Shown piece by piece: positions 1,930 through 6,434 of a stretch of 38,252 nt of DNA (its first letter is position 1; the number at the start of each line of letters is the position of its first letter). The stretch lies in sequence record MZ043897.1; one strand, written 5' to 3'. The notes beneath the pieces are model-generated. The model made no database searches. It saw only the letters and a program-made list of their open reading frames with translations, and was not told the origin of the DNA. Source of the stretch: Escherichia phage E212. The translations under genes were made by a program, and so were the position numbers.

Positions 1930-1995
1930 AGGATGCTCCTTCTGTTTGATTGCATAACGAAAACGCCTCGAGTGAAGCGTTATTGGTATGCATAT

Positions 1996-2019
1996 AAAAA
2001 GGCCCCCACATCGGAGGGC
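1996..2019 (-). terminator. Intrinsic terminator candidate (tL1-like) between N and the cIII-like gene
   Basis: On the minus strand GCCCUC-CGAUGU-GGGGGC (6-bp stem with one G-U pair) followed by CUUUUUAUAU. Confidence 0.45.
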
Positions 2020-2236
2020 AAAGAAGATTTCCAATAATCAGAACAAGTCGGCTCCTGTTTAGTTACGAGCGACATTGCTCCGTGTATTCACTCGTTGGAA
2101 TGAATACACAGTGCAGTGTTTATTCTGTTGTTTATGCCAAAGATAAAGGCCACTATCAGGCAGCTTTGTTGTTCTGTTTACCAAGTTCTCTGGCAATCAT
2201 TGCCGCCGCTTGAATTGTCCACACCATTGATTTTTA

Positions 2237-2323
2237 TCAATAGTCGTAGTCATACGGATAGTCCTGGTATTGTTCCATCACATCCTGAGGATGCTCTTCG
2301 AACTCTTCAAATTCTTCTTCCAT
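2237..2323 (-). CDS. Highly acidic 28-aa peptide
   Basis: ORF MEEEFEEFEEHPQDVMEQYQDYPYDYDY with a strong RBS (GAGGTGA, 4-nt spacer), directly downstream of the N-like gene; below the ORF-track cutoff. Confidence 0.3.
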   Translation of the reverse strand: MEEEFEEFEEHPQDVMEQYQDYPYDYDY

Positions 2324-2381
2324 ATCTCACCTCAAATAAGTGGTTTGCTGCCTAATTTCATTTTCTGGCGACCAACACAAG

Positions 2382-2654
2382 TCATCTTGCTGTCAGCTGT
2401 TTGGATTTCCTGTAGCCTGCCGCGTAAATGGCTACATTTGGAAGACAAGTTGAGCCTTCATATTTTCTGGTCAACGTTGTCAGTGTTATTACTTCTGCTC
2501 TCATTACTGGTTTGCGTTTGCATTGTAAGACCACTCGTGAAGGGGTTGGCCTGTGTAGCTTGTCAGAGCTGATCGCCTCCTGACTTTGCAGGTTTGCACG
2601 ACGAGCTCTACGGCGAGAAGCTGCGGTGCCTTTAAATTCTGTTTTTCTGGACAT
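2382..2654 (-). CDS. N-like transcription antiterminator (P22 gene 24-like)
   Basis: 90-aa ORF from the internal Met of track ORF 2382..2726; N-terminal arginine-rich motif (GTAASRRRARRA); C-terminal YAAGYRKSKQLTAR resembles P22 gp24; RBS GGGAGG 5 nt upstream. Confidence 0.7.
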   Translation of the reverse strand: MSRKTEFKGTAASRRRARRANLQSQEAISSDKLHRPTPSRVVLQCKRKPVMRAEVITLTTLTRKYEGSTCLPNVAIYAAGYRKSKQLTAR

Positions 2655-2679
2655 AGATTCCTCCCGAATAAACTTTGGC

Positions 2680-2727
2680 GATGCAATCTCGAAGCTCCTC
2701 CTGAGACGGTTGCTTCGGCATTGCATC
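2680..2727 (-). promoter_or_regulatory. Large imperfect inverted repeat in the N leader (candidate RNase III-type processing hairpin)
   Basis: GATGCAATCTCGAAGC ... GCTTCGGCATTGCATC, about 15-bp arms around a 16-nt loop, between the nutL-like site and the N RBS. Confidence 0.4.
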
Positions 2728-2752
2728 CCACAGCTTATATGGTTGGGTGATC

Positions 2753-2799
2753 TGGCTTTTCAGCCACGTAGTCGAGTGTTCGACGTTGTTTAAAGAGCC
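2753..2799 (-). promoter_or_regulatory. nutL candidate (boxA-like plus two hairpins, the second with a GAAAA-type loop)
   Basis: Transcript reads GGCUCUUUA-AACAAC-GUCGAACACUCGAC-UACG-UGGCUGAAAAGCCA; the same architecture recurs at the nutR candidate. Confidence 0.45.
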
Positions 2800-2844
2800 T
2801 GCCAGTCTGCTCCGTTTGGCTTACAGCGTCCTGCTGACGGTTAA

Positions 2845-2873
2845 ATAGTACGATATGTACTTTATTGGGTCAA
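2845..2873 (-). promoter_or_regulatory. pL candidate promoter
   Basis: Minus-strand TTGACC, 17-bp spacer, TACTAT, about 40 nt upstream of the boxA-like element; overlapped by a palindromic operator candidate. Confidence 0.4.
2847..2861. promoter_or_regulatory. oL operator candidate (AGTAC-N5-GTACT)
   Basis: AGTACGATATGTACT inverted repeat overlapping the pL -10 and spacer; related half-sites occur in the cI-cro intergenic region. Confidence 0.4.
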
Positions 2874-3060
2874 TACAATTTGTTCTAAAATGGGGTGATT
2901 TTTTATAACGCTTTGTATTTAATAGTGTTGTTTTTTAGCGTGGGTGTATCGCCTCGGCGATGTAAGGAGAGATCAGAATTGCGTGGTTTAGTGAGTTGTA
3001 TCTATTTATTTTTCAATAAATACATTTGGTTATGTGTCTTTAGGTGGGGGCGTGAGGCAA

Positions 3061-3086
3061 AGAAAACCCGGCTCGGTGGCCGGGTT
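3061..3086 (-). terminator. Intrinsic terminator candidate just downstream of the NYN-domain gene
   Basis: AACCCGGC/GCCGGGTT 8-bp stem with 6-nt loop; on the minus strand it is followed by UUUUCUUU. Confidence 0.45.
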
Positions 3087-3093
3087 GATGGGA

Positions 3094-3951
3094 TTATCGT
3101 TTATTTCTTTGATGTTTCTTTGCAGACTCAGCTTGAGTGTTTCCATACCTGCGTTTACCGCTATTGTTTTTTCCTCTAGGCTTGCCTTTTTTTCGATCTT
3201 CCCACCAGTCAGGTGCCGGGTCTGGCTCAACATGTAAAGCATCGGCAAGTCCTGATATCAAGCTGTATGACTGAACTCCATCAATGTGCTCTGACAGTGA
3301 TGGGGTAACATTCTGTCTTAGTGGATCAAGAATAAAATCAATACCTTTAATTCTGGCGTGTTTGGCGGCAGGCACAAAGTCTGAGTCCCCAGCAACAAGG
3401 ACAATTACATCAACAAGTTTTTCATAAGCTAAAGTCGTGATATCCATCCCTAGCTTGATATCAACTTGTTTTTGTTTGATGTCATAGTAAAAATCATCAT
3501 TTGTCAGTTCATCCCATTTTTTCGTTCCTTTCATCAGAGCATCAAGGGAGAATGTAGTTAGTTGCCATCGCTTATTATCAACAAGATTCCCTAATCTTAA
3601 GGCTGTTTTTCGAGTTTTTCTTAACTCTTCATGCAGCTCCGTTCTCAGAATATATGATTTTTCGAGTTTGAAATTCTTGCGACCAGGCGTCTTATTGCCA
3701 GGCTCAGGAAGTGGAAGGCGTGTTTGAATGTCGAGTGGTGGACAGTCATAGAAGTAAATTCTATAAAGCTCAAGCGGTTCCCTACGTTCTTGTGATTGAC
3801 GTTTTCCATTAAGATGGGAAAGAACCATTGACCATATTACTTTCATTATGCATTGCGCAGTCAGTTCATGCTCGGCGAAGTGTTTACGATGCGTAGCATG
3901 AACACGCTGCATGAAAAAACCCGCATCAATTAAAATTGCTGCTTTCTTCAT
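3094..3951 (-). CDS. NYN/LabA-like (PIN-like) domain protein with basic C-terminal tail; putative nuclease in the rexAB position
   Basis: 285-aa ORF; N-terminal AAILIDAGFF and downstream IVLVAGDSDFVPAAK motifs are typical of NYN/LabA-like domains; Lys/Arg-rich C-terminal 40 aa; immediately downstream of cI on the same strand. Confidence 0.6.
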   Translation of the reverse strand: MKKAAILIDAGFFMQRVHATHRKHFAEHELTAQCIMKVIWSMVLSHLNGKRQSQERREPLELYRIYFYDCPPLDIQTRLPLPEPGNKTPGRKNFKLEKSYILRTELHEELRKTRKTALRLGNLVDNKRWQLTTFSLDALMKGTKKWDELTNDDFYYDIKQKQVDIKLGMDITTLAYEKLVDVIVLVAGDSDFVPAAKHARIKGIDFILDPLRQNVTPSLSEHIDGVQSYSLISGLADALHVEPDPAPDWWEDRKKGKPRGKNNSGKRRYGNTQAESAKKHQRNKR

Positions 3952-3960
3952 AAGAGTCCC

Positions 3961-4022
3961 AAAAAAATAGCCCAGAGCCGTTATGCAGATATTAACAATT
4001 GTCTGCGAACGGGGCTGGGCTT
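3961..4022 (-). terminator. Long structured hairpin with U-tract between cI and the NYN gene (terminator or attenuator candidate)
   Basis: Minus-strand arms AGCCCAGCCCCGUU / AACGGCUCUGGGCU (12 pairs with a 2-nt internal loop) enclosing an inner hairpin GCAGA...UCUGC, followed by AUUUUUUU; sits 60 nt after the cI stop, and its U-tract ends 10 nt before the NYN start codon. Confidence 0.5.
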
Positions 4023-4078
4023 GGTTTAATTAATCTATGCCAAGTTGACTGTGCCGTCAACATAAAACTTACTTCCTA

Positions 4079-4738
4079 TCACCCAAACGTCTCTTCAGGC
4101 CACTGACTAGCGATAACTTTCCCCACAACGGAACAACTCTCATTGCATGGGATCATTGGGTATTGTGGGTTTAGTGGCTGTAGAAACACCTGACCGCTAT
4201 CCCTGATCAGTTTCTTGAAGGTAAACTCATCACCACCAAGTCTGGCTATACAGAAATCGCCTGGCTCAACAGCCTGCTCAGGGTCAACCAGAATTAACAT
4301 CCCGTCAGGAAAGCTGGGCTTGGATCCTGTTGGTGCGGTCATGGAATTACCTTCAACCTCAAGCCAGAATGCAGAGCCACTGGCTTTTTTGGTTGTGCTT
4401 ACCAATCTCTCCGCATCGCCTTTGGTAAAGGTTCTGAGTTCTGGAGAGAACATCCCAGCCTGAACATGAGAAAATACAGGGTACTCATATTGTTTTTTAA
4501 CTGGGGCCGATGAGTATTCGCCAACAGGTGAAAATGTCCCGTCGTGGTTGAATGATATGTTATCAATACCAAGGTATTTAAACACCACACCAATATCACT
4601 AAGAGATGGATGACGAGATCCGCGCAACCAGTGTCCAATCCCACCCTGCGTCATACCTAGCTCTTCGGCTAACTTCTCTTGAGTTATGCCGAGCTCTTTC
4701 ATTCTGGATCTAGCCAGTTCATACCATTTCATTTTCAT
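4079..4738 (-). CDS. cI: CI repressor, hybrid: novel N-terminal HTH domain fused to a lambda-cI-type C-terminal S24 (LexA-like) domain
   Basis: C-terminal about 135 aa ([13 protein letters not shown]...[12 protein letters not shown]) near-identical to lambda cI; N-terminal about 85 aa ([37 protein letters not shown]...) unrelated to lambda cI; start taken at the internal Met with RBS AAGGA. Confidence 0.9.
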
Positions 4739-4773
4739 GTCCTTATTATTACGCTCTGTACTGGAACCATCCA

Positions 4774-4820
4774 TGCACAATGTGTATTTTTGCTTGTATT
4801 TGGAAAGTACATATTGTATT
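4774..4820. promoter_or_regulatory. oR operator candidates in the cI-cro divergent region
   Basis: TGCACAATGTGTATT (4774-4788) and AGTACATATTGTATT (4806-4820) resemble the oL palindrome AGTACGATATGTACT; exact pR/pRM hexamers not resolved. Confidence 0.35.
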
Positions 4821-4848
4821 TTTTATTCGAGGTTACTATGGAGGGCAT

Positions 4849-5064
4849 ATGAGCAACCTACGAAAATATCGAGAGTCACTGAATATCTCTCAAACAACAC
4901 TTGCTAAGGCAGTTGGATGCACACAGGGAGCTATCGGACATTGGGAATCTGGTCGTCGCTTCCCAGACCTTAAAACATGCCGTGCTCTTGTTGCGTGCCT
5001 AAATAAGTTAGGCGCAAAAGTAAGTCTTGATGACGTGTTCCCGCCGGAACACAAAGCCGCTTAA
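4849..5064 (+). CDS. cro: Cro-like HTH repressor
   Basis: 71-aa ORF divergent from cI; HTH segment ISQTTLAKAVGCTQGAIGHWESG shares its type with the cI N-terminus; RBS GGAGGG. Confidence 0.8.
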   Translation: MSNLRKYRESLNISQTTLAKAVGCTQGAIGHWESGRRFPDLKTCRALVACLNKLGAKVSLDDVFPPEHKAA

Positions 5065-5074
5065 TAAGCGGAGC

Positions 5075-5120
5075 CGCTCTTTGTAACAACGGACATTCGT
5101 CCTACGTCGCTGAAAAGCGA
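5075..5120 (+). promoter_or_regulatory. nutR candidate (boxA-like CGCTCTTTG plus two hairpins, the second with a GAAAA-type loop)
   Basis: CGCUCUUUG-UAACAAC-GGACAUUCGUCC-UACG-UCGCUGAAAAGCGA; parallels the nutL candidate element for element. Confidence 0.45.
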
Positions 5121-5205
5121 GTCCCAAGATATCTGACCAACTAAGGCCATATGCGTTTCCACGCATACCTTTCAACTAACTATTCACTATTGGAAATCTT
5201 AAGAA

Positions 5206-5502
5206 ATGGAACGAACAAGTTACAGCAAACTATCACAGCGTGACGTTGATCGCGCAGAAACAGATTTACTCATCAACCTATCAACGCTTACCCAGCGCGG
5301 TCTGGCAAAGATGATTGGCTGTCATGAATCGAAGATAAGCAGAACGGACTGGAGATTTATTGCTTCGGTCTTGTGTGCTTTCGGAATGGCATCAGACATC
5401 AGTCCGATTAGCAGGGCTTTTAAGTATGCGCTTGATGAAATCACAAAGAAAAAATCCCCGGCCGCCACCGAGGATTTTAAGCAAATTGATATGCAATTCT
5501 GA
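5206..5502 (+). CDS. cII: CII-like transcriptional activator
   Basis: 98-aa ORF; C-terminus KKKSPAATEDFKQIDMQF resembles lambda CII KKRPAATERSEQIQMEF; HTH in the middle. Confidence 0.8.
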   Translation: MERTSYSKLSQRDVDRAETDLLINLSTLTQRGLAKMIGCHESKISRTDWRFIASVLCAFGMASDISPISRAFKYALDEITKKKSPAATEDFKQIDMQF

Positions 5503-5534
5503 GGGAATTACTGGATCAATCTACAGGGGTCATT

Positions 5535-6434
5535 ATGACAAATACAGCAAAAATACTCAACTTCTGCAGAGGTAACTTTGCCGAACAGGAGCGTAATGTG
5601 GCAGATCTCGATGATGGTTACGCCAGACTATCAAATATGCTGCTTGAGGCTTATTCAGGCGCAGATCTGACCAAGCGACAGTTTAAAGTGCTGCTTGCCA
5701 TTCTGCGTAAAACCTATGGGTGGAATAAACCAATGGACAGAATCACCGATTCTCAACTTAGCGAGATTACAAAGTTACCTGTCAAACGGTGCAATGAAGC
5801 CAAGTTAGAGCTCGTCAGAATGAATATTATCAAGCAGCAAGGCGGCATGTTTGGACCAAATAAAAACATCTCAGAATGGTGTATCCCTCAAAACGAGGGA
5901 AAATCCCCTAAAACGAGGGATAAAACATCCCTCAAATTGGGGGATTGCTATCCCTCAAAACAGGGGAACACAAAAGACACTAATACAAAAGAAAAAAGAA
6001 AAGATTATTCGTCAGAGAATTCTGGCGAATCCTCTGACCAGCCAGAAAACGATCTTTCTGTGGTTAAACCGGATGCTGCAATTCAGAGCGGCAGCAAGTG
6101 GGGAACAGCAGAAGACCTGACCGCCGCAGAGTGGATGTTTGACATGGTGAAGACCATCGCGCCATCAGCCAGAAAACCGAATTTTGCTGGGTGGGCTAAC
6201 GATATCCGCCTGATGCGTGAACGTGACGGACGTAACCACCGCGATATGTGTGTGCTTTTCCGCTGGGCCTGCCAGGACAACTTCTGGTCCGGTAACGTGC
6301 TGAGTCCGGCCAAACTCCGCGACAAGTGGACCCAGCTCGAAATCAACCGTAACAAGCAACAGGCAGGCGTGACAGCCAGCAAACCAAAACTCGACCTGAC
6401 AAACACTGACTGGATTTACGGGGTGGATTTATGA
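5535..6434 (+). CDS. O: Replication initiation protein O (lambda-type)
   Basis: 299-aa ORF essentially identical to lambda O (MTNTAKILNF...DWIYGVDL); contains the ori iterons. Confidence 0.95.
   Translation: MTNTAKILNFCRGNFAEQERNVADLDDGYARLSNMLLEAYSGADLTKRQFKVLLAILRKTYGWNKPMDRITDSQLSEITKLPVKRCNEAKLELVRMNIIKQQGGMFGPNKNISEWCIPQNEGKSPKTRDKTSLKLGDCYPSKQGNTKDTNTKEKRKDYSSENSGESSDQPENDLSVVKPDAAIQSGSKWGTAEDLTAAEWMFDMVKTIAPSARKPNFAGWANDIRLMRERDGRNHRDMCVLFRWACQDNFWSGNVLSPAKLRDKWTQLEINRNKQQAGVTASKPKLDLTNTDWIYGVDL
5883..6010. repeat. ori-lambda-type origin: four iterons plus AT-rich tract inside O
   Basis: Four copies of TCCCTCAAAACGAGGGA-like inverted-repeat iterons (5883-5962) followed by an A-rich stretch. 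Confidence 0.85.

What the first reader, a model, noticed from the sequence alone, without database searches (positions are those of the whole stretch)
2654..2873. N leader with nutL-like element, large inverted-repeat hairpin and pL candidate
Upstream of the N-like gene are a TTGACC-17-TACTAT promoter candidate, a boxA-like GGCTCTTTA, two hairpins (the second with a CUGAAAAGC loop) and a 15-bp-arm inverted repeat just before the RBS. This reproduces the lambda leader architecture (nutL, RNase III site, N) with different sequences.
Basis: partly seen in the sequence, partly recalled or inferred. Interest (0 to 1): 0.4.

Follow-up and report, generated by a model that had tools for sequence, protein, structure and literature searches.

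The report
Phage pL promoter, nutL and N leader
This is the ordinary early-left control region of a lambda-like prophage (repressor-controlled promoter, N-utilisation site and structured leader in front of the N antiterminator gene), nearly identical to a region already annotated in Shiga-toxin phages and present in about one in seven complete E. coli genomes.

Summary

On the minus strand, from upstream to downstream:
- Promoter pL: TTGACC, 17 nt, TACTAT (2873-2845), overlapped by repressor operators that recur at OR.
- A transcript start at about 2838, inferred from homology to lambda pL +1.
- nutL: boxA 2799-2791, spacer hairpin 2784-2771, boxB 2766-2753.
- A 26-bp imperfect stem (2737-2669) that ends 3 nt before the Shine-Dalgarno sequence.
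- The N gene (2654-2382), which matches Pfam N_peptide at E 2e-32.

A twin nutR lies after cro (5075-5120). It carries compensatory changes in both hairpins.

The region is about 95% identical to phage VT2-Sakai, whose GenBank record annotates pL, three operators, nutL and N at the same positions. The spacer hairpin matches the H-19B type of nut site.

The large stem is the positional and partly sequence homologue of the lambda N-leader stem that RNase III processes. Its base is conserved in nine other lambdoid leaders compared, with compensatory changes at 10 of 18 pairs. RNase III cleavage itself was not tested.

Two minor points may be less well described:
- boxB here is a true 4-nt GNRA tetraloop (GAAA), not the usual pentaloop, and this tracks a particular arginine-rich motif in N.
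- A small alternative hairpin may compete with the base of the large stem.

Interest is low.

The parts
2904..2920 (-). Operator OL3 (AAATACAAAGCGTTATA)
   Evidence: Homologous to a 'putative operator' annotated in VT2-Sakai, mapped through alignment A1. Its half-sites are AATAC and ATAAC.
2871..2887 (-). Operator OL2, overlapping the -35 hexamer
   Evidence: Mapped from the VT2-Sakai annotation. Dyad AATACAATTTGTTCT at 2872-2886. It matches the OR region at 4806-4820 (I11).
2846..2862 (-). Operator OL1, overlapping the -10 hexamer
   Evidence: Perfect dyad AGTACGATATGTACT at 2847-2861. It is 86% complementary to OR at 4804-4825 (I1). VT2-Sakai annotates an operator here.
2845..2873 (-). Promoter pL: -35 TTGACC (2873-2868), 17-nt spacer, -10 TACTAT (2850-2845)
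   Evidence: Found by the consensus scan with 9 of 12 matches. Homologous to the annotated 'putative major leftward promoter' of VT2-Sakai.
2838..2838 (-). Inferred transcription start (G, where lambda and most relatives have A)
   Evidence: The lambda pL transcript starts ATCAGCAGGACGC, 6 nt after the -10 hexamer (the HK106 and HK544 records mark the same base). The window has GTCAGCAGGACGC at the same spacing. In 80 IMG/VR relatives, homology between phages of different immunity types begins exactly here. This position is inferred, not mapped.
2791..2799 (-). nutL boxA (GGCUCUUUA)
   Evidence: The sequence GCTCTTTAA matches 9 of 9 core positions of the published boxA consensus GYTCTTTAANA (PMC5725501). 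It lies inside the nutL annotated for VT2-Sakai.
2771..2784 (-). nutL spacer hairpin (GUCGA-ACAC-UCGAC)
   Evidence: Folds at -4.3 kcal/mol. Only its loop varies among close relatives. The stem is replaced by GGAC/GUCC in nutR and by GAUUC/GAAUC in H-19B-type nutL, so 4 of 5 pairs show compensatory change.
2753..2766 (-). nutL boxB (UGGCU-GAAA-AGCCA), the predicted binding site for the arginine-rich motif of N
   Evidence: Folds at -6.3 kcal/mol. It is invariant in 37 distinct leader variants. Stem pairs 1 and 2 covary across nutL and nutR sites and across phages. The loop is GAAA or GCAA, both GNRA, in phages with a matching N motif.
2728..2742 (-). Weak alternative hairpin (CCAUA-UAAGC-UGUGG) that would tie up the start of the large stem's 5' arm
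   Evidence: It appears in the local minimum-energy fold of all ten leaders. In this window it is marginal: -4.0 kcal/mol, z = -0.1. Covariation is weak. This part is speculative.
2669..2737 (-). Large imperfect leader stem (26 bp), candidate RNase III substrate and ribosome-binding-site gate
   Evidence: Inverted repeat I7. Energy -31.1 kcal/mol, z = -5.1. The basal 18 pairs are conserved in ten lambdoid leaders including lambda: 95% of cells paired, 10 of 18 pairs compensatory, 0 of 500 shuffles as good. All variable positions among close relatives are unpaired or give wobble pairs.
2660..2665 (-). Shine-Dalgarno sequence GGGAGG, 5 nt before the AUG
   Evidence: Read directly from the sequence. 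Conserved in relatives.
2382..2654 (-). N antiterminator gene (90 aa; arginine-rich motif KGTAASRRRARRANLQ near the N-terminus)
   Evidence: Pfam PF25694 N_peptide, E 2.2e-32, 112 bits, residues 1-90. It is 97.8% identical to VT2-Sakai N.
5075..5120 (+). nutR: boxA CGCUCUUUG (5075-5083), spacer hairpin GGAC-AUUC-GUCC (5091-5102), boxB UCGCU-GAAA-AGCGA (5107-5120)
   Evidence: Lies just after the cro stop codon. It is 90% complementary to the + strand of nutL (I2). It folds into two hairpins. The spacer is identical to the H-19B nutR spacer recovered from oligo RS663.
1962..2019 (-). Two terminator-like hairpins with U-tracts downstream of N, candidate tL terminators that N-modified polymerase would read through
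   Evidence: Found by the consensus scan. Their function is inferred.
3065..3086 (-). Terminator-like hairpin upstream of pL, which would end the cI/NYN transcript before pL
   Evidence: Found by the consensus scan: 8 pairs, 6 of them G-C, then a T-run. VT2-Sakai, HK620 and HK106 annotate an equivalent terminator (tIMM) at this place.

Best explanation
The region is the early-left control region of a lambdoid prophage of the VT2-Sakai N type. The proposed mechanism has four steps.

1. When the CI repressor leaves operators OL1-OL3, host sigma-70 RNA polymerase starts at pL, with +1 at about 2838.
2. The nascent RNA carries nutL. boxA can recruit NusB and S10. The spacer with its small hairpin is the NusA and Rho contact region in the related phage H-19B. 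The boxB hairpin, with a GAAA tetraloop closed by U-A, binds the arginine-rich N-terminus of N.
3. The N-Nus complex stays tethered to the polymerase and makes it resistant to terminators downstream of N, such as the hairpins at 2019-1962. This turns on the recombination genes and other delayed-early left genes. The same happens rightward at nutR (5075-5120).
4. Between nutL and the N start codon, a 26-bp imperfect stem ends 3 nt before the Shine-Dalgarno sequence. By homology with lambda, it limits ribosome access, supports N-nutL autorepression of N translation, and is cut by RNase III, which relieves that limit.

Shown here: the anatomy, gene family membership, homology to annotated records, and covariation that supports all three stems. 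Inferred: every biochemical step.
For: - **Gene context.** The order is RecT, N, NYN, cI, cro, cII, O, P. N matches Pfam N_peptide at E 2e-32.
- **Prior annotation.** The region is 94.6% identical to VT2-Sakai, with pL, three operators, nutL and N annotated at homologous positions.
- **Operators.** The operator dyads overlap the -10 and -35 hexamers and recur at OR (I1 and I11).
- **Transcript start.** The leader begins with lambda's pL +1 sequence, (A/G)TCAGCAGGACGC, at the same distance from the -10 hexamer. In relatives with at least six unrelated promoter/operator modules, including a lambda-like one, similarity starts exactly at this base.
- **nutR twin.** It has compensatory stem changes. 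Across 6 distinct nut sites, 96.7% of cells are paired, 6 of 10 pairs have double changes, and slid controls pair at 25-45%.
- **Link to H-19B.** The H-19B nutR spacer is identical, and that site is described as having 'two hairpins' bound by N, NusA and Rho (PMC3526286).
- **N motif and boxB loop co-vary.** RRRxRRAxLQ goes with GAAA or GCAA. RRRERLKAKAL (H-19B type) and P22's TRRHERRRKLAIER go with GACAA.
- **Large stem.** z = -5.1. The same basal architecture ends 17-23 nt before the AUG in lambda, HK106, BP-4795, g341c, SPN9CC, Ecl_MII_001, HK620, P22 and 75/02. 95% of cells are paired, 10 of 18 pairs are compensatory, and 0 of 500 shuffles do as well.
- **Lambda precedent.** N is translationally repressed through nutL and the intervening leader is 'highly structured' (PMC5725501). 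The titles of Kameyama 1991 and Wilson 2002 are cited; their content I give from memory.
- **P22 evidence of processing.** A 96-nt RNA made of the homologous leader hairpin accumulates in P22-infected cells (PMC13397905).
Against: - No transcript, cleavage or antitermination data exist for this exact sequence.
- The promoter match is only 9 of 12, and on its own it is at chance level.
- boxA may be dispensable, as reported for H-19B (Neely and Friedman 2000, from memory).
- boxB has a 4-nt loop instead of the 5-nt loop of the studied systems.
- In isolation, nutL folds best with boxA paired to the 3' half of boxB (-14.9 kcal/mol). That fold would compete with boxB.
- The stem alignments for searches were registered by hand, which favours the proposed structures.
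- The RNase III claim rests on homology of position and shape only.
Confidence: 0.88

Rival explanations
1. The promoter, nutL and N assignments are right, but the large stem is not an RNase III site. It would act only as a structural element, for example by gating translation directly, stabilising the N mRNA, or compacting the nutL-to-SD distance for N autorepression.
For: RNase III cleavage was not tested. The stem here (69 nt) is much shorter than lambda's (119 nt) and lacks lambda's apical domain. PMC5725501 explains N autorepression by RNA looping in which the structured leader merely compacts the loop.
Against: The 26-bp imperfect helix exceeds the roughly two helical turns that RNase III needs (general knowledge). 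Its basal helix is homologous to that of the lambda stem, which is reported to be processed (from memory: Kameyama 1991). A leader-hairpin fragment accumulates in P22 infection.
Confidence: 0.25
2. N starts at the upstream in-frame ATG at 2726, giving a 114-aa protein as annotated in AP005153.1. The 'hairpin' would then be coding sequence rather than leader.
For: The frame is open from 2726. The Stx1 phage record annotates the long form. The upstream ATG stays in frame in 36 of 37 distinct variants. Lambda's RefSeq record has the same kind of long annotation.
Against: - There is no Shine-Dalgarno sequence before 2726, whereas GGGAGG lies 5 nt before 2654.
- The Pfam model aligns from residue 1 of the 90-aa form.
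- Homologues begin MTRRTQFKG and align to MSRKTEFKG, directly after the same stem and SD.
- Substitutions in 2737-2669 follow the RNA structure: they fall at unpaired or wobble positions. The segment covaries as a helix.
- In one variant the -72 ATG falls out of frame with the N start.
- In phage 75/02 that ATG is GTG.
Confidence: 0.04
3. The motifs are chance matches, and the N gene is transcribed from elsewhere, for example by read-through from the cI/NYN transcript.
For: Each short motif is individually at chance frequency.
Against: - A terminator-like hairpin (3086-3065) separates the upstream operon from pL.
- The operators overlap the hexamers and recur at OR.
- The mosaic boundary sits at +1.
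- There is a nutR twin.
- The same elements are annotated in several related records.
Confidence: 0.02

Closest known systems
pL-OL-nutL-N region of Stx2 phage VT2-Sakai (Sp5), GenBank AP000422.1, and many Stx1/Stx2 phages
   Same: The sequence is about 95% identical over 770 nt and N is 97.8% identical. The promoter hexamers, boxA, boxB, the large stem and the SD are the same. The record annotates pL, three operators, nutL and N.
   Different: There are a few substitutions in the operators and the early leader. The spacer-hairpin loop is ACAC here against CUC there. The gene upstream of pL differs: an NYN-domain protein here, as in Escherichia phage 2B8.
H-19B N / nut system (Neely and Friedman 1998, 2000; Sen laboratory work, PMC3526286)
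   Same: The nut site has a hairpin in the spacer between boxA and boxB. The nutR spacer GGACAUUCGUCCUACG is identical. The boxB stem CGCU/AGCG is the same. The N C-terminus ...YAAGYRKSKQLTAR is shared.
   Different: N is only about 40% identical and is 90 aa against 127 aa. The boxB loop is GAAA (4 nt) here and GACAA (5 nt) in H-19B. The nutL spacer stem is GUCGA/UCGAC here and GAUUC/GAAUC there. This nutL has a near-consensus boxA, which H-19B-type nutL lacks.
Lambda pL-nutL-rIII-N leader (Franklin 1985; Kameyama 1991; Wilson 1997, 2002; content from memory, titles seen)
   Same: The order of elements is the same. The first 13 transcribed bases are the same. The basal helix of the large stem (CUUUGG...CCAAAG with a 1-nt 3' bulge) is homologous and is placed just before the SD.
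   Different: The operators, N protein family branch and boxB sequence are different, and a spacer hairpin is present here. The stem is half as long (69 nt against 119 nt) and the leader is 184 nt against 223 nt.
P22 gene 24 / nutL
   Same: The early leader is shared (AUCAGCAGGACGCUGG.AGCCAAACGGA...). boxA is GCUCUUUAA. The N C-terminal 24 residues are 75% identical. The large stem lies before the SD.
   Different: The P22 boxB is GCGCU-GACAA-AGCGC. There is no spacer hairpin. The arginine-rich motif differs.

Membership tests
Lambdoid N / nut processive antitermination system | A small basic N protein with an N-terminal arginine-rich motif, encoded first in the pL operon | tested here: met
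   Pfam PF25694 N_peptide at E 2.2e-32 over the full length. The motif SRRRARRA is at residues 13-20. It is the first gene after pL.
Lambdoid N / nut processive antitermination system | nut sites (boxA, spacer, boxB hairpin) in both early transcripts: upstream of N and downstream of cro | tested here: met
   nutL at 2799-2753 and nutR at 5075-5120. The stems covary: 96.7% of cells paired, against 25-45% in slid controls.
Lambdoid N / nut processive antitermination system | A boxB loop that adopts a GNRA-type fold closed by a U-A pair. In lambda and P22 this is a GNRNA or GACAA pentaloop with one base extruded. | tested here: inconclusive
   The U-A closing pair and a GNRA sequence (GAAA; GCAA in phage 75/02) are present, but the loop has 4 nt, not 5. 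The lambda requirement is taken from PMC12027372. The fold and N binding cannot be tested here.
Lambdoid N / nut processive antitermination system | N- and Nus-dependent read-through of downstream terminators | not testable with these tools
   Only candidate terminators were found, at 2019-2002 and 1981-1962 on the minus strand.
H-19B-type nut site | A dyad symmetry (hairpin) within the spacer between boxA and boxB | tested here: met
   Hairpins at 2784-2771 and 5091-5102. The nutR spacer is identical to H-19B oligo RS663. [quoted passage not shown]
H-19B-type nut site | boxB CGCU-GACAA-AGCG recognised by the 127-aa H-19B N | tested here: not met
   The loop is GAAA, and N is 90 aa and about 40% identical. 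It is a sister specificity class, not the same one.
Lambda-type repressor-controlled early promoter (pL/OL) | A sigma-70 promoter overlapped by multiple dyad operators that recur at OR next to cI and cro | tested here: met
   (I1, I11). The homologous operators are annotated in VT2-Sakai. cI and cro were identified by Pfam.
Lambda N-leader RNase III-processed stem | A long imperfect helix (over 20 bp) between nutL and the N ribosome-binding site, with its base adjacent to the SD | tested here: met
   26 bp at 2737-2669, with the SD at 2665-2660. The basal helix is homologous in lambda and eight other leaders, with 10 of 18 pairs compensatory.
Lambda N-leader RNase III-processed stem | Cleavage by RNase III and rnc-dependent N translation | not testable with these tools
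   No data exist for this sequence. The only indirect hint is the P22B leader-hairpin fragment in P22 infection.

The most novel reading that the evidence does not exclude
This N/nut pair may be a distinct and uncharacterised specificity class. In it boxB is a true 4-nt GNRA tetraloop (GAAA or GCAA) with no extruded base, read by an N motif of the form RRRxRRAxLQ. Since the extruded loop base of lambda boxB is thought to contribute to the NusA-containing complex (from memory: Chattopadhyay 1995, Legault 1998), this class could assemble its antitermination complex differently. It could also discriminate against the GACAA pentaloop of the co-resident H-19B/933W-type Stx phages. In addition, a small hairpin that competes with the base of the large stem might act as a switch for exposure of the ribosome-binding site.
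Probability: 0.25. Interest if true: 0.35.

Novelty: already known. Interest (0 to 1): 0.12.

Why it matters
It matters little for discovery. This is the textbook lambdoid early-left control region, in the version carried by the Sakai Stx2 phage and by about 14% of complete E. coli genomes.

Its practical value is for annotation:
- It fixes the N start at 2654 rather than the upstream ATG used in some records.
- It places pL, OL1-3, nutL and nutR in this prophage.
- It shows that the large leader stem is conserved by covariation across lambda, P22, phage 21, and H-19B-type and Sakai-type phages.

Because N drives early gene expression, and indirectly Stx production, in related phages, the tetraloop boxB class could be of modest interest to people who study antitermination specificity among co-resident Stx prophages.

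Tried and rejected
- **Rfam.** A scan of 2000-5600 at E <= 1 gave only a spurious lncRNA hit. There is no curated family for nut sites or the N leader.
- **PDB.** A sequence search with N found nothing.
- **The search for related loci with N.** It returned only relatives at 97-100% identity, which showed neutral variation but not deep covariation. I therefore fetched named phages with tblastn.
- **MAFFT alignment of natural nut sites.** It was not structure-consistent. I replaced it with hand-registered stems. The same was done for the large stem and the small hairpin. This biases the counts toward the proposed structures; the slid controls partly compensate.
- **Papers.** Neely and Friedman 2000, Wilson 1997 and Wilson 2002 are not held. 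A full-text search for the boxB sequence found nothing relevant.
- **Terminator reading of the spacer hairpin.** The + strand 'terminator-like' hit at 2771-2784 is just the reverse complement of the spacer hairpin. I rejected it.
- **boxA-boxB alternative pairing as a conserved switch.** I rejected it. boxA variants (UGCU, AGCU) and relatives that lack boxA show no matching change in boxB.

Full report
**Context**

The window is the early region of a lambda-like prophage. On the minus strand lie RecT (467-1369), N (2382-2654), an NYN-domain gene (3094-3951) and a cI-type repressor (4079-4735). On the plus strand lie cro (4849-5064), cII, O and P. The finding (2654-2873) is the stretch between the N start codon and the -35 hexamer of the leftward promoter.

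**Checking the observation**

Reading the minus strand confirms every element:
- TTGACC (2873-2868), a 17-nt spacer, and TACTAT (2850-2845).
- GGCTCTTTA (2799-2791).
- Hairpin GUCGA-ACAC-UCGAC (2784-2771).
- Hairpin UGGCU-GAAA-AGCCA (2766-2753).
- An inverted repeat with 16-nt arms at 2727-2712 and 2695-2680, with 14 of 16 positions complementary (I7).
- GGGAGG (2665-2660), 5 nt before the ATG at 2654.

Two descriptions need correction. The 'CUGAAAAGC loop' is really a 4-nt GAAA loop closed by U-A and C-G pairs. The '15-bp arms' are part of a longer imperfect stem of 26 bp at 2737-2669, with energy -31.1 kcal/mol, z = -5.1, and 0 of 200 shuffles folding as well.

The short motifs are not individually above chance. 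The case rests on arrangement and comparison.

**What it is**

- The downstream gene is a true N antiterminator (Pfam N_peptide, E 2.2e-32, full length).
- An 801-nt query spanning the region matches 327 phage records. Most are Stx-converting phages. Over 770 nt it is 94.6% identical to VT2-Sakai.
- The VT2-Sakai record AP000422.1 annotates a terminator for the pRM transcript, three operators, the 'putative major leftward promoter', 'putative N-utilization leftward' and N. In alignment these fall on window 2904-2920, 2871-2887, 2846-2862, 2845-2873, about 2799-2758, and 2654 onward.
- The operators are dyads (AGTACGATATGTACT at 2847-2861) that overlap both promoter hexamers and recur next to cI and cro at 4804-4825 (I1 and I11).
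- The leader alone is found at 90% identity or more in 763 of 5426 complete E. coli genomes.

**Transcription start**

Lambda's pL transcript begins ATCAGCAGGACGC, 6 nt after its -10 hexamer. The GenBank records for HK106, HK544 and phage 21 mark the equivalent base. The window has GTCAGCAGGACGC at the same spacing, which puts +1 at 2838.

In 80 IMG/VR relatives of this N gene, the sequence upstream of that base falls into at least six unrelated promoter/operator types, one of them lambda-like. Everything downstream of it is nearly invariant. The immunity-module boundary therefore coincides with +1. This is what is expected for pL in mosaic lambdoid genomes.

**The nut sites**

A second site lies just after cro:
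- boxA CGCUCUUUG (5075-5083).
- Hairpin GGAC-AUUC-GUCC (5091-5102).
- boxB UCGCU-GAAA-AGCGA (5107-5120) (I2, 49).

Relative to nutL, the boxB stem has a G-C to C-G swap and the spacer stem is entirely different, yet still self-complementary.

Oligonucleotides published for H-19B nutR (PMC3526286, supplement) show an identical spacer hairpin and the same boxB stem, but a GACAA loop. [quoted passage not shown]

I registered the stems of six distinct nut sites by hand (window, 75/02, g341c, Ecl_MII_001, HK106/BP-4795, SPN9CC). 96.7% of cells pair, 6 of 10 pairs have changes on both sides, and slid controls pair at 25-45%.

The boxB loop tracks the arginine-rich motif of N:
- RRRARRANLQ, RRRAHRAELQ and RRRERRAALQ go with GAAA or GCAA.
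- RRRERLKAKAL (H-19B type) and P22's TRRHERRRKLAIER go with GACAA.

boxA matches the core of the published consensus GYTCTTTAANA (PMC5725501).

**The large stem**

I extracted leaders from lambda, HK106, BP-4795, g341c, SPN9CC, Ecl_MII_001, HK620, P22 and phage 75/02. Each has the same basal architecture:
- 5' ...CUUUGG followed by 8 nt.
- An apical domain of variable length (29 to 123 nt between the conserved arm segments).
- 8 nt, a 1-nt bulge, and CCAAAG... on the 3' side, ending 17-23 nt before the AUG.

On hand-registered arms, 95% of cells pair, 10 of 18 pairs show compensatory changes, 0 of 500 shuffles do as well, and slid controls pair at 32-41%. Phages 21, Sf6, HK544 and HF4s fold the same way.

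Among 25 ungapped close variants of the window's leader, all 11 variable positions in 2737-2669 are unpaired or give wobble pairs.

The stem is therefore the homologue of lambda's N-leader stem. That stem is reported to be cut by RNase III, to hinder ribosome binding, and to take part in N's translational autorepression. The content of Kameyama 1991 and Wilson 1997 and 2002 is from my memory. Their existence and the autorepression summary are documented.

In P22-infected cells, a 96-nt RNA corresponding to most of the homologous hairpin accumulates (PMC13397905). This fits with the leader being processed in a relative.

Cleavage of this particular RNA by RNase III remains an inference.

**Start codon**

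Some records annotate a 114-aa N from the in-frame ATG at 2726. The evidence favours 2654:
- The strong SD before 2654.
- The Pfam alignment from residue 1.
- The N-termini of homologues.
- Evolution of 2737-2669 that follows RNA structure rather than codons.

**Mechanism**

The mechanism is inferred from the family.
1. When repressor is lost, pL fires.
2. nutL RNA assembles N with NusA, and possibly with NusB and S10 at boxA, on the elongating polymerase.
3. The modified polymerase reads through the terminator-like hairpins 360-420 nt beyond N (2019-2002 and 1981-1962) into the recombination genes.
4. nutR does the same rightward.
5. The large stem and RNase III tune N translation.

**Novelty**

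The element is already known. The same region is annotated in GenBank for VT2-Sakai, HK620, HK106 and phage 21. The conserved 'form' of lambda, 21 and P22 leaders was described decades ago (Franklin 1985, from memory).

Two small points may be less well described:
- boxB is a true GNRA tetraloop rather than a pentaloop. The lambda requirement for GNRNA and a U-A closing pair is in PMC12027372.
- A small hairpin can pair an upstream CCAAAG-like segment with the first bases of the large stem's 5' arm. It appears in all leaders examined. It is weak in this window (-4.0 kcal/mol, z = -0.1) and only weakly supported by covariation.

**Verdict**

The element is an ordinary, already annotated one, and interest is low.

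Noticed in passing
window 2753-2766 (-) and 5107-5120 (+); L085 591-604; L087 about 4928-4941: boxB is a 4-nt GNRA tetraloop (GAAA; GCAA in Shigella phage 75/02) instead of the 5-nt loop of lambda, P22 and H-19B. The loop type co-varies with the N arginine-rich motif: RRRxRRAxLQ goes with the tetraloop, and RRRERLKAKAL (H-19B type) or P22's TRRHERRRKLAIER goes with GACAA.
   Followed up: partly
window 2728-2742 (-); the same position in L083, L084, L086-L089, L090, L092, L093: A short segment upstream of the large leader stem (about CCAAAG; CCAUA here) can pair with the first 5-7 nt of the stem's 5' arm. This forms a small hairpin that is mutually exclusive with the base of the large stem. It is seen in all lambdoid N leaders examined, with compensatory changes in P22 and in the Sakai-type majority. 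It is strong in phage 21 (-9.3 kcal/mol) but marginal in this window.
   Followed up: partly
window 2751-2800 (-): Folded alone, nutL prefers a structure in which boxA (GGCU.CUUU) pairs with the loop and 3' half of boxB (-14.9 kcal/mol, against about -10.6 for the two hairpins). nutR has the same potential (CGCU with AGCG). Relatives with other boxA variants, or with no boxA, show no matching change, so it is probably incidental.
   Followed up: partly
window 2838 (-) and upstream; L003-L082: The mosaic boundary between immunity modules sits exactly at the pL transcription start. At least six unrelated promoter/operator types, including a lambda-like one, are joined to the same leader.
   Followed up: yes
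window 3094-3951 (-): A 285-aa NYN-domain protein (a predicted RNase-like fold; Pfam E 7e-9) occupies the slot between cI and pL where lambda carries rexA and rexB. It is shared with Escherichia phage 2B8 but not with VT2-Sakai. It may be a lysogen-expressed exclusion or defence gene.
   Followed up: no
window 2726 (-); AP005153.1, NC_001416.1 and BP-4795 records: Several public records annotate N from an upstream in-frame ATG that lies inside the leader stem (114 aa here, 133 aa in lambda RefSeq, 149 aa in BP-4795). The comparative evidence favours the short form that starts after the SD.
   Followed up: yes
window 1962-2019 (-): Two tandem terminator-like hairpins with U-tracts lie 360-420 nt downstream of the N stop codon. 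They are candidate tL terminators for N to override.
   Followed up: no
window 5057-5071: The palindrome CCGCTTAATAAGCGG spans the cro stop codon, immediately upstream of the nutR boxA. The scan flagged it as terminator-like on the minus strand.
   Followed up: no
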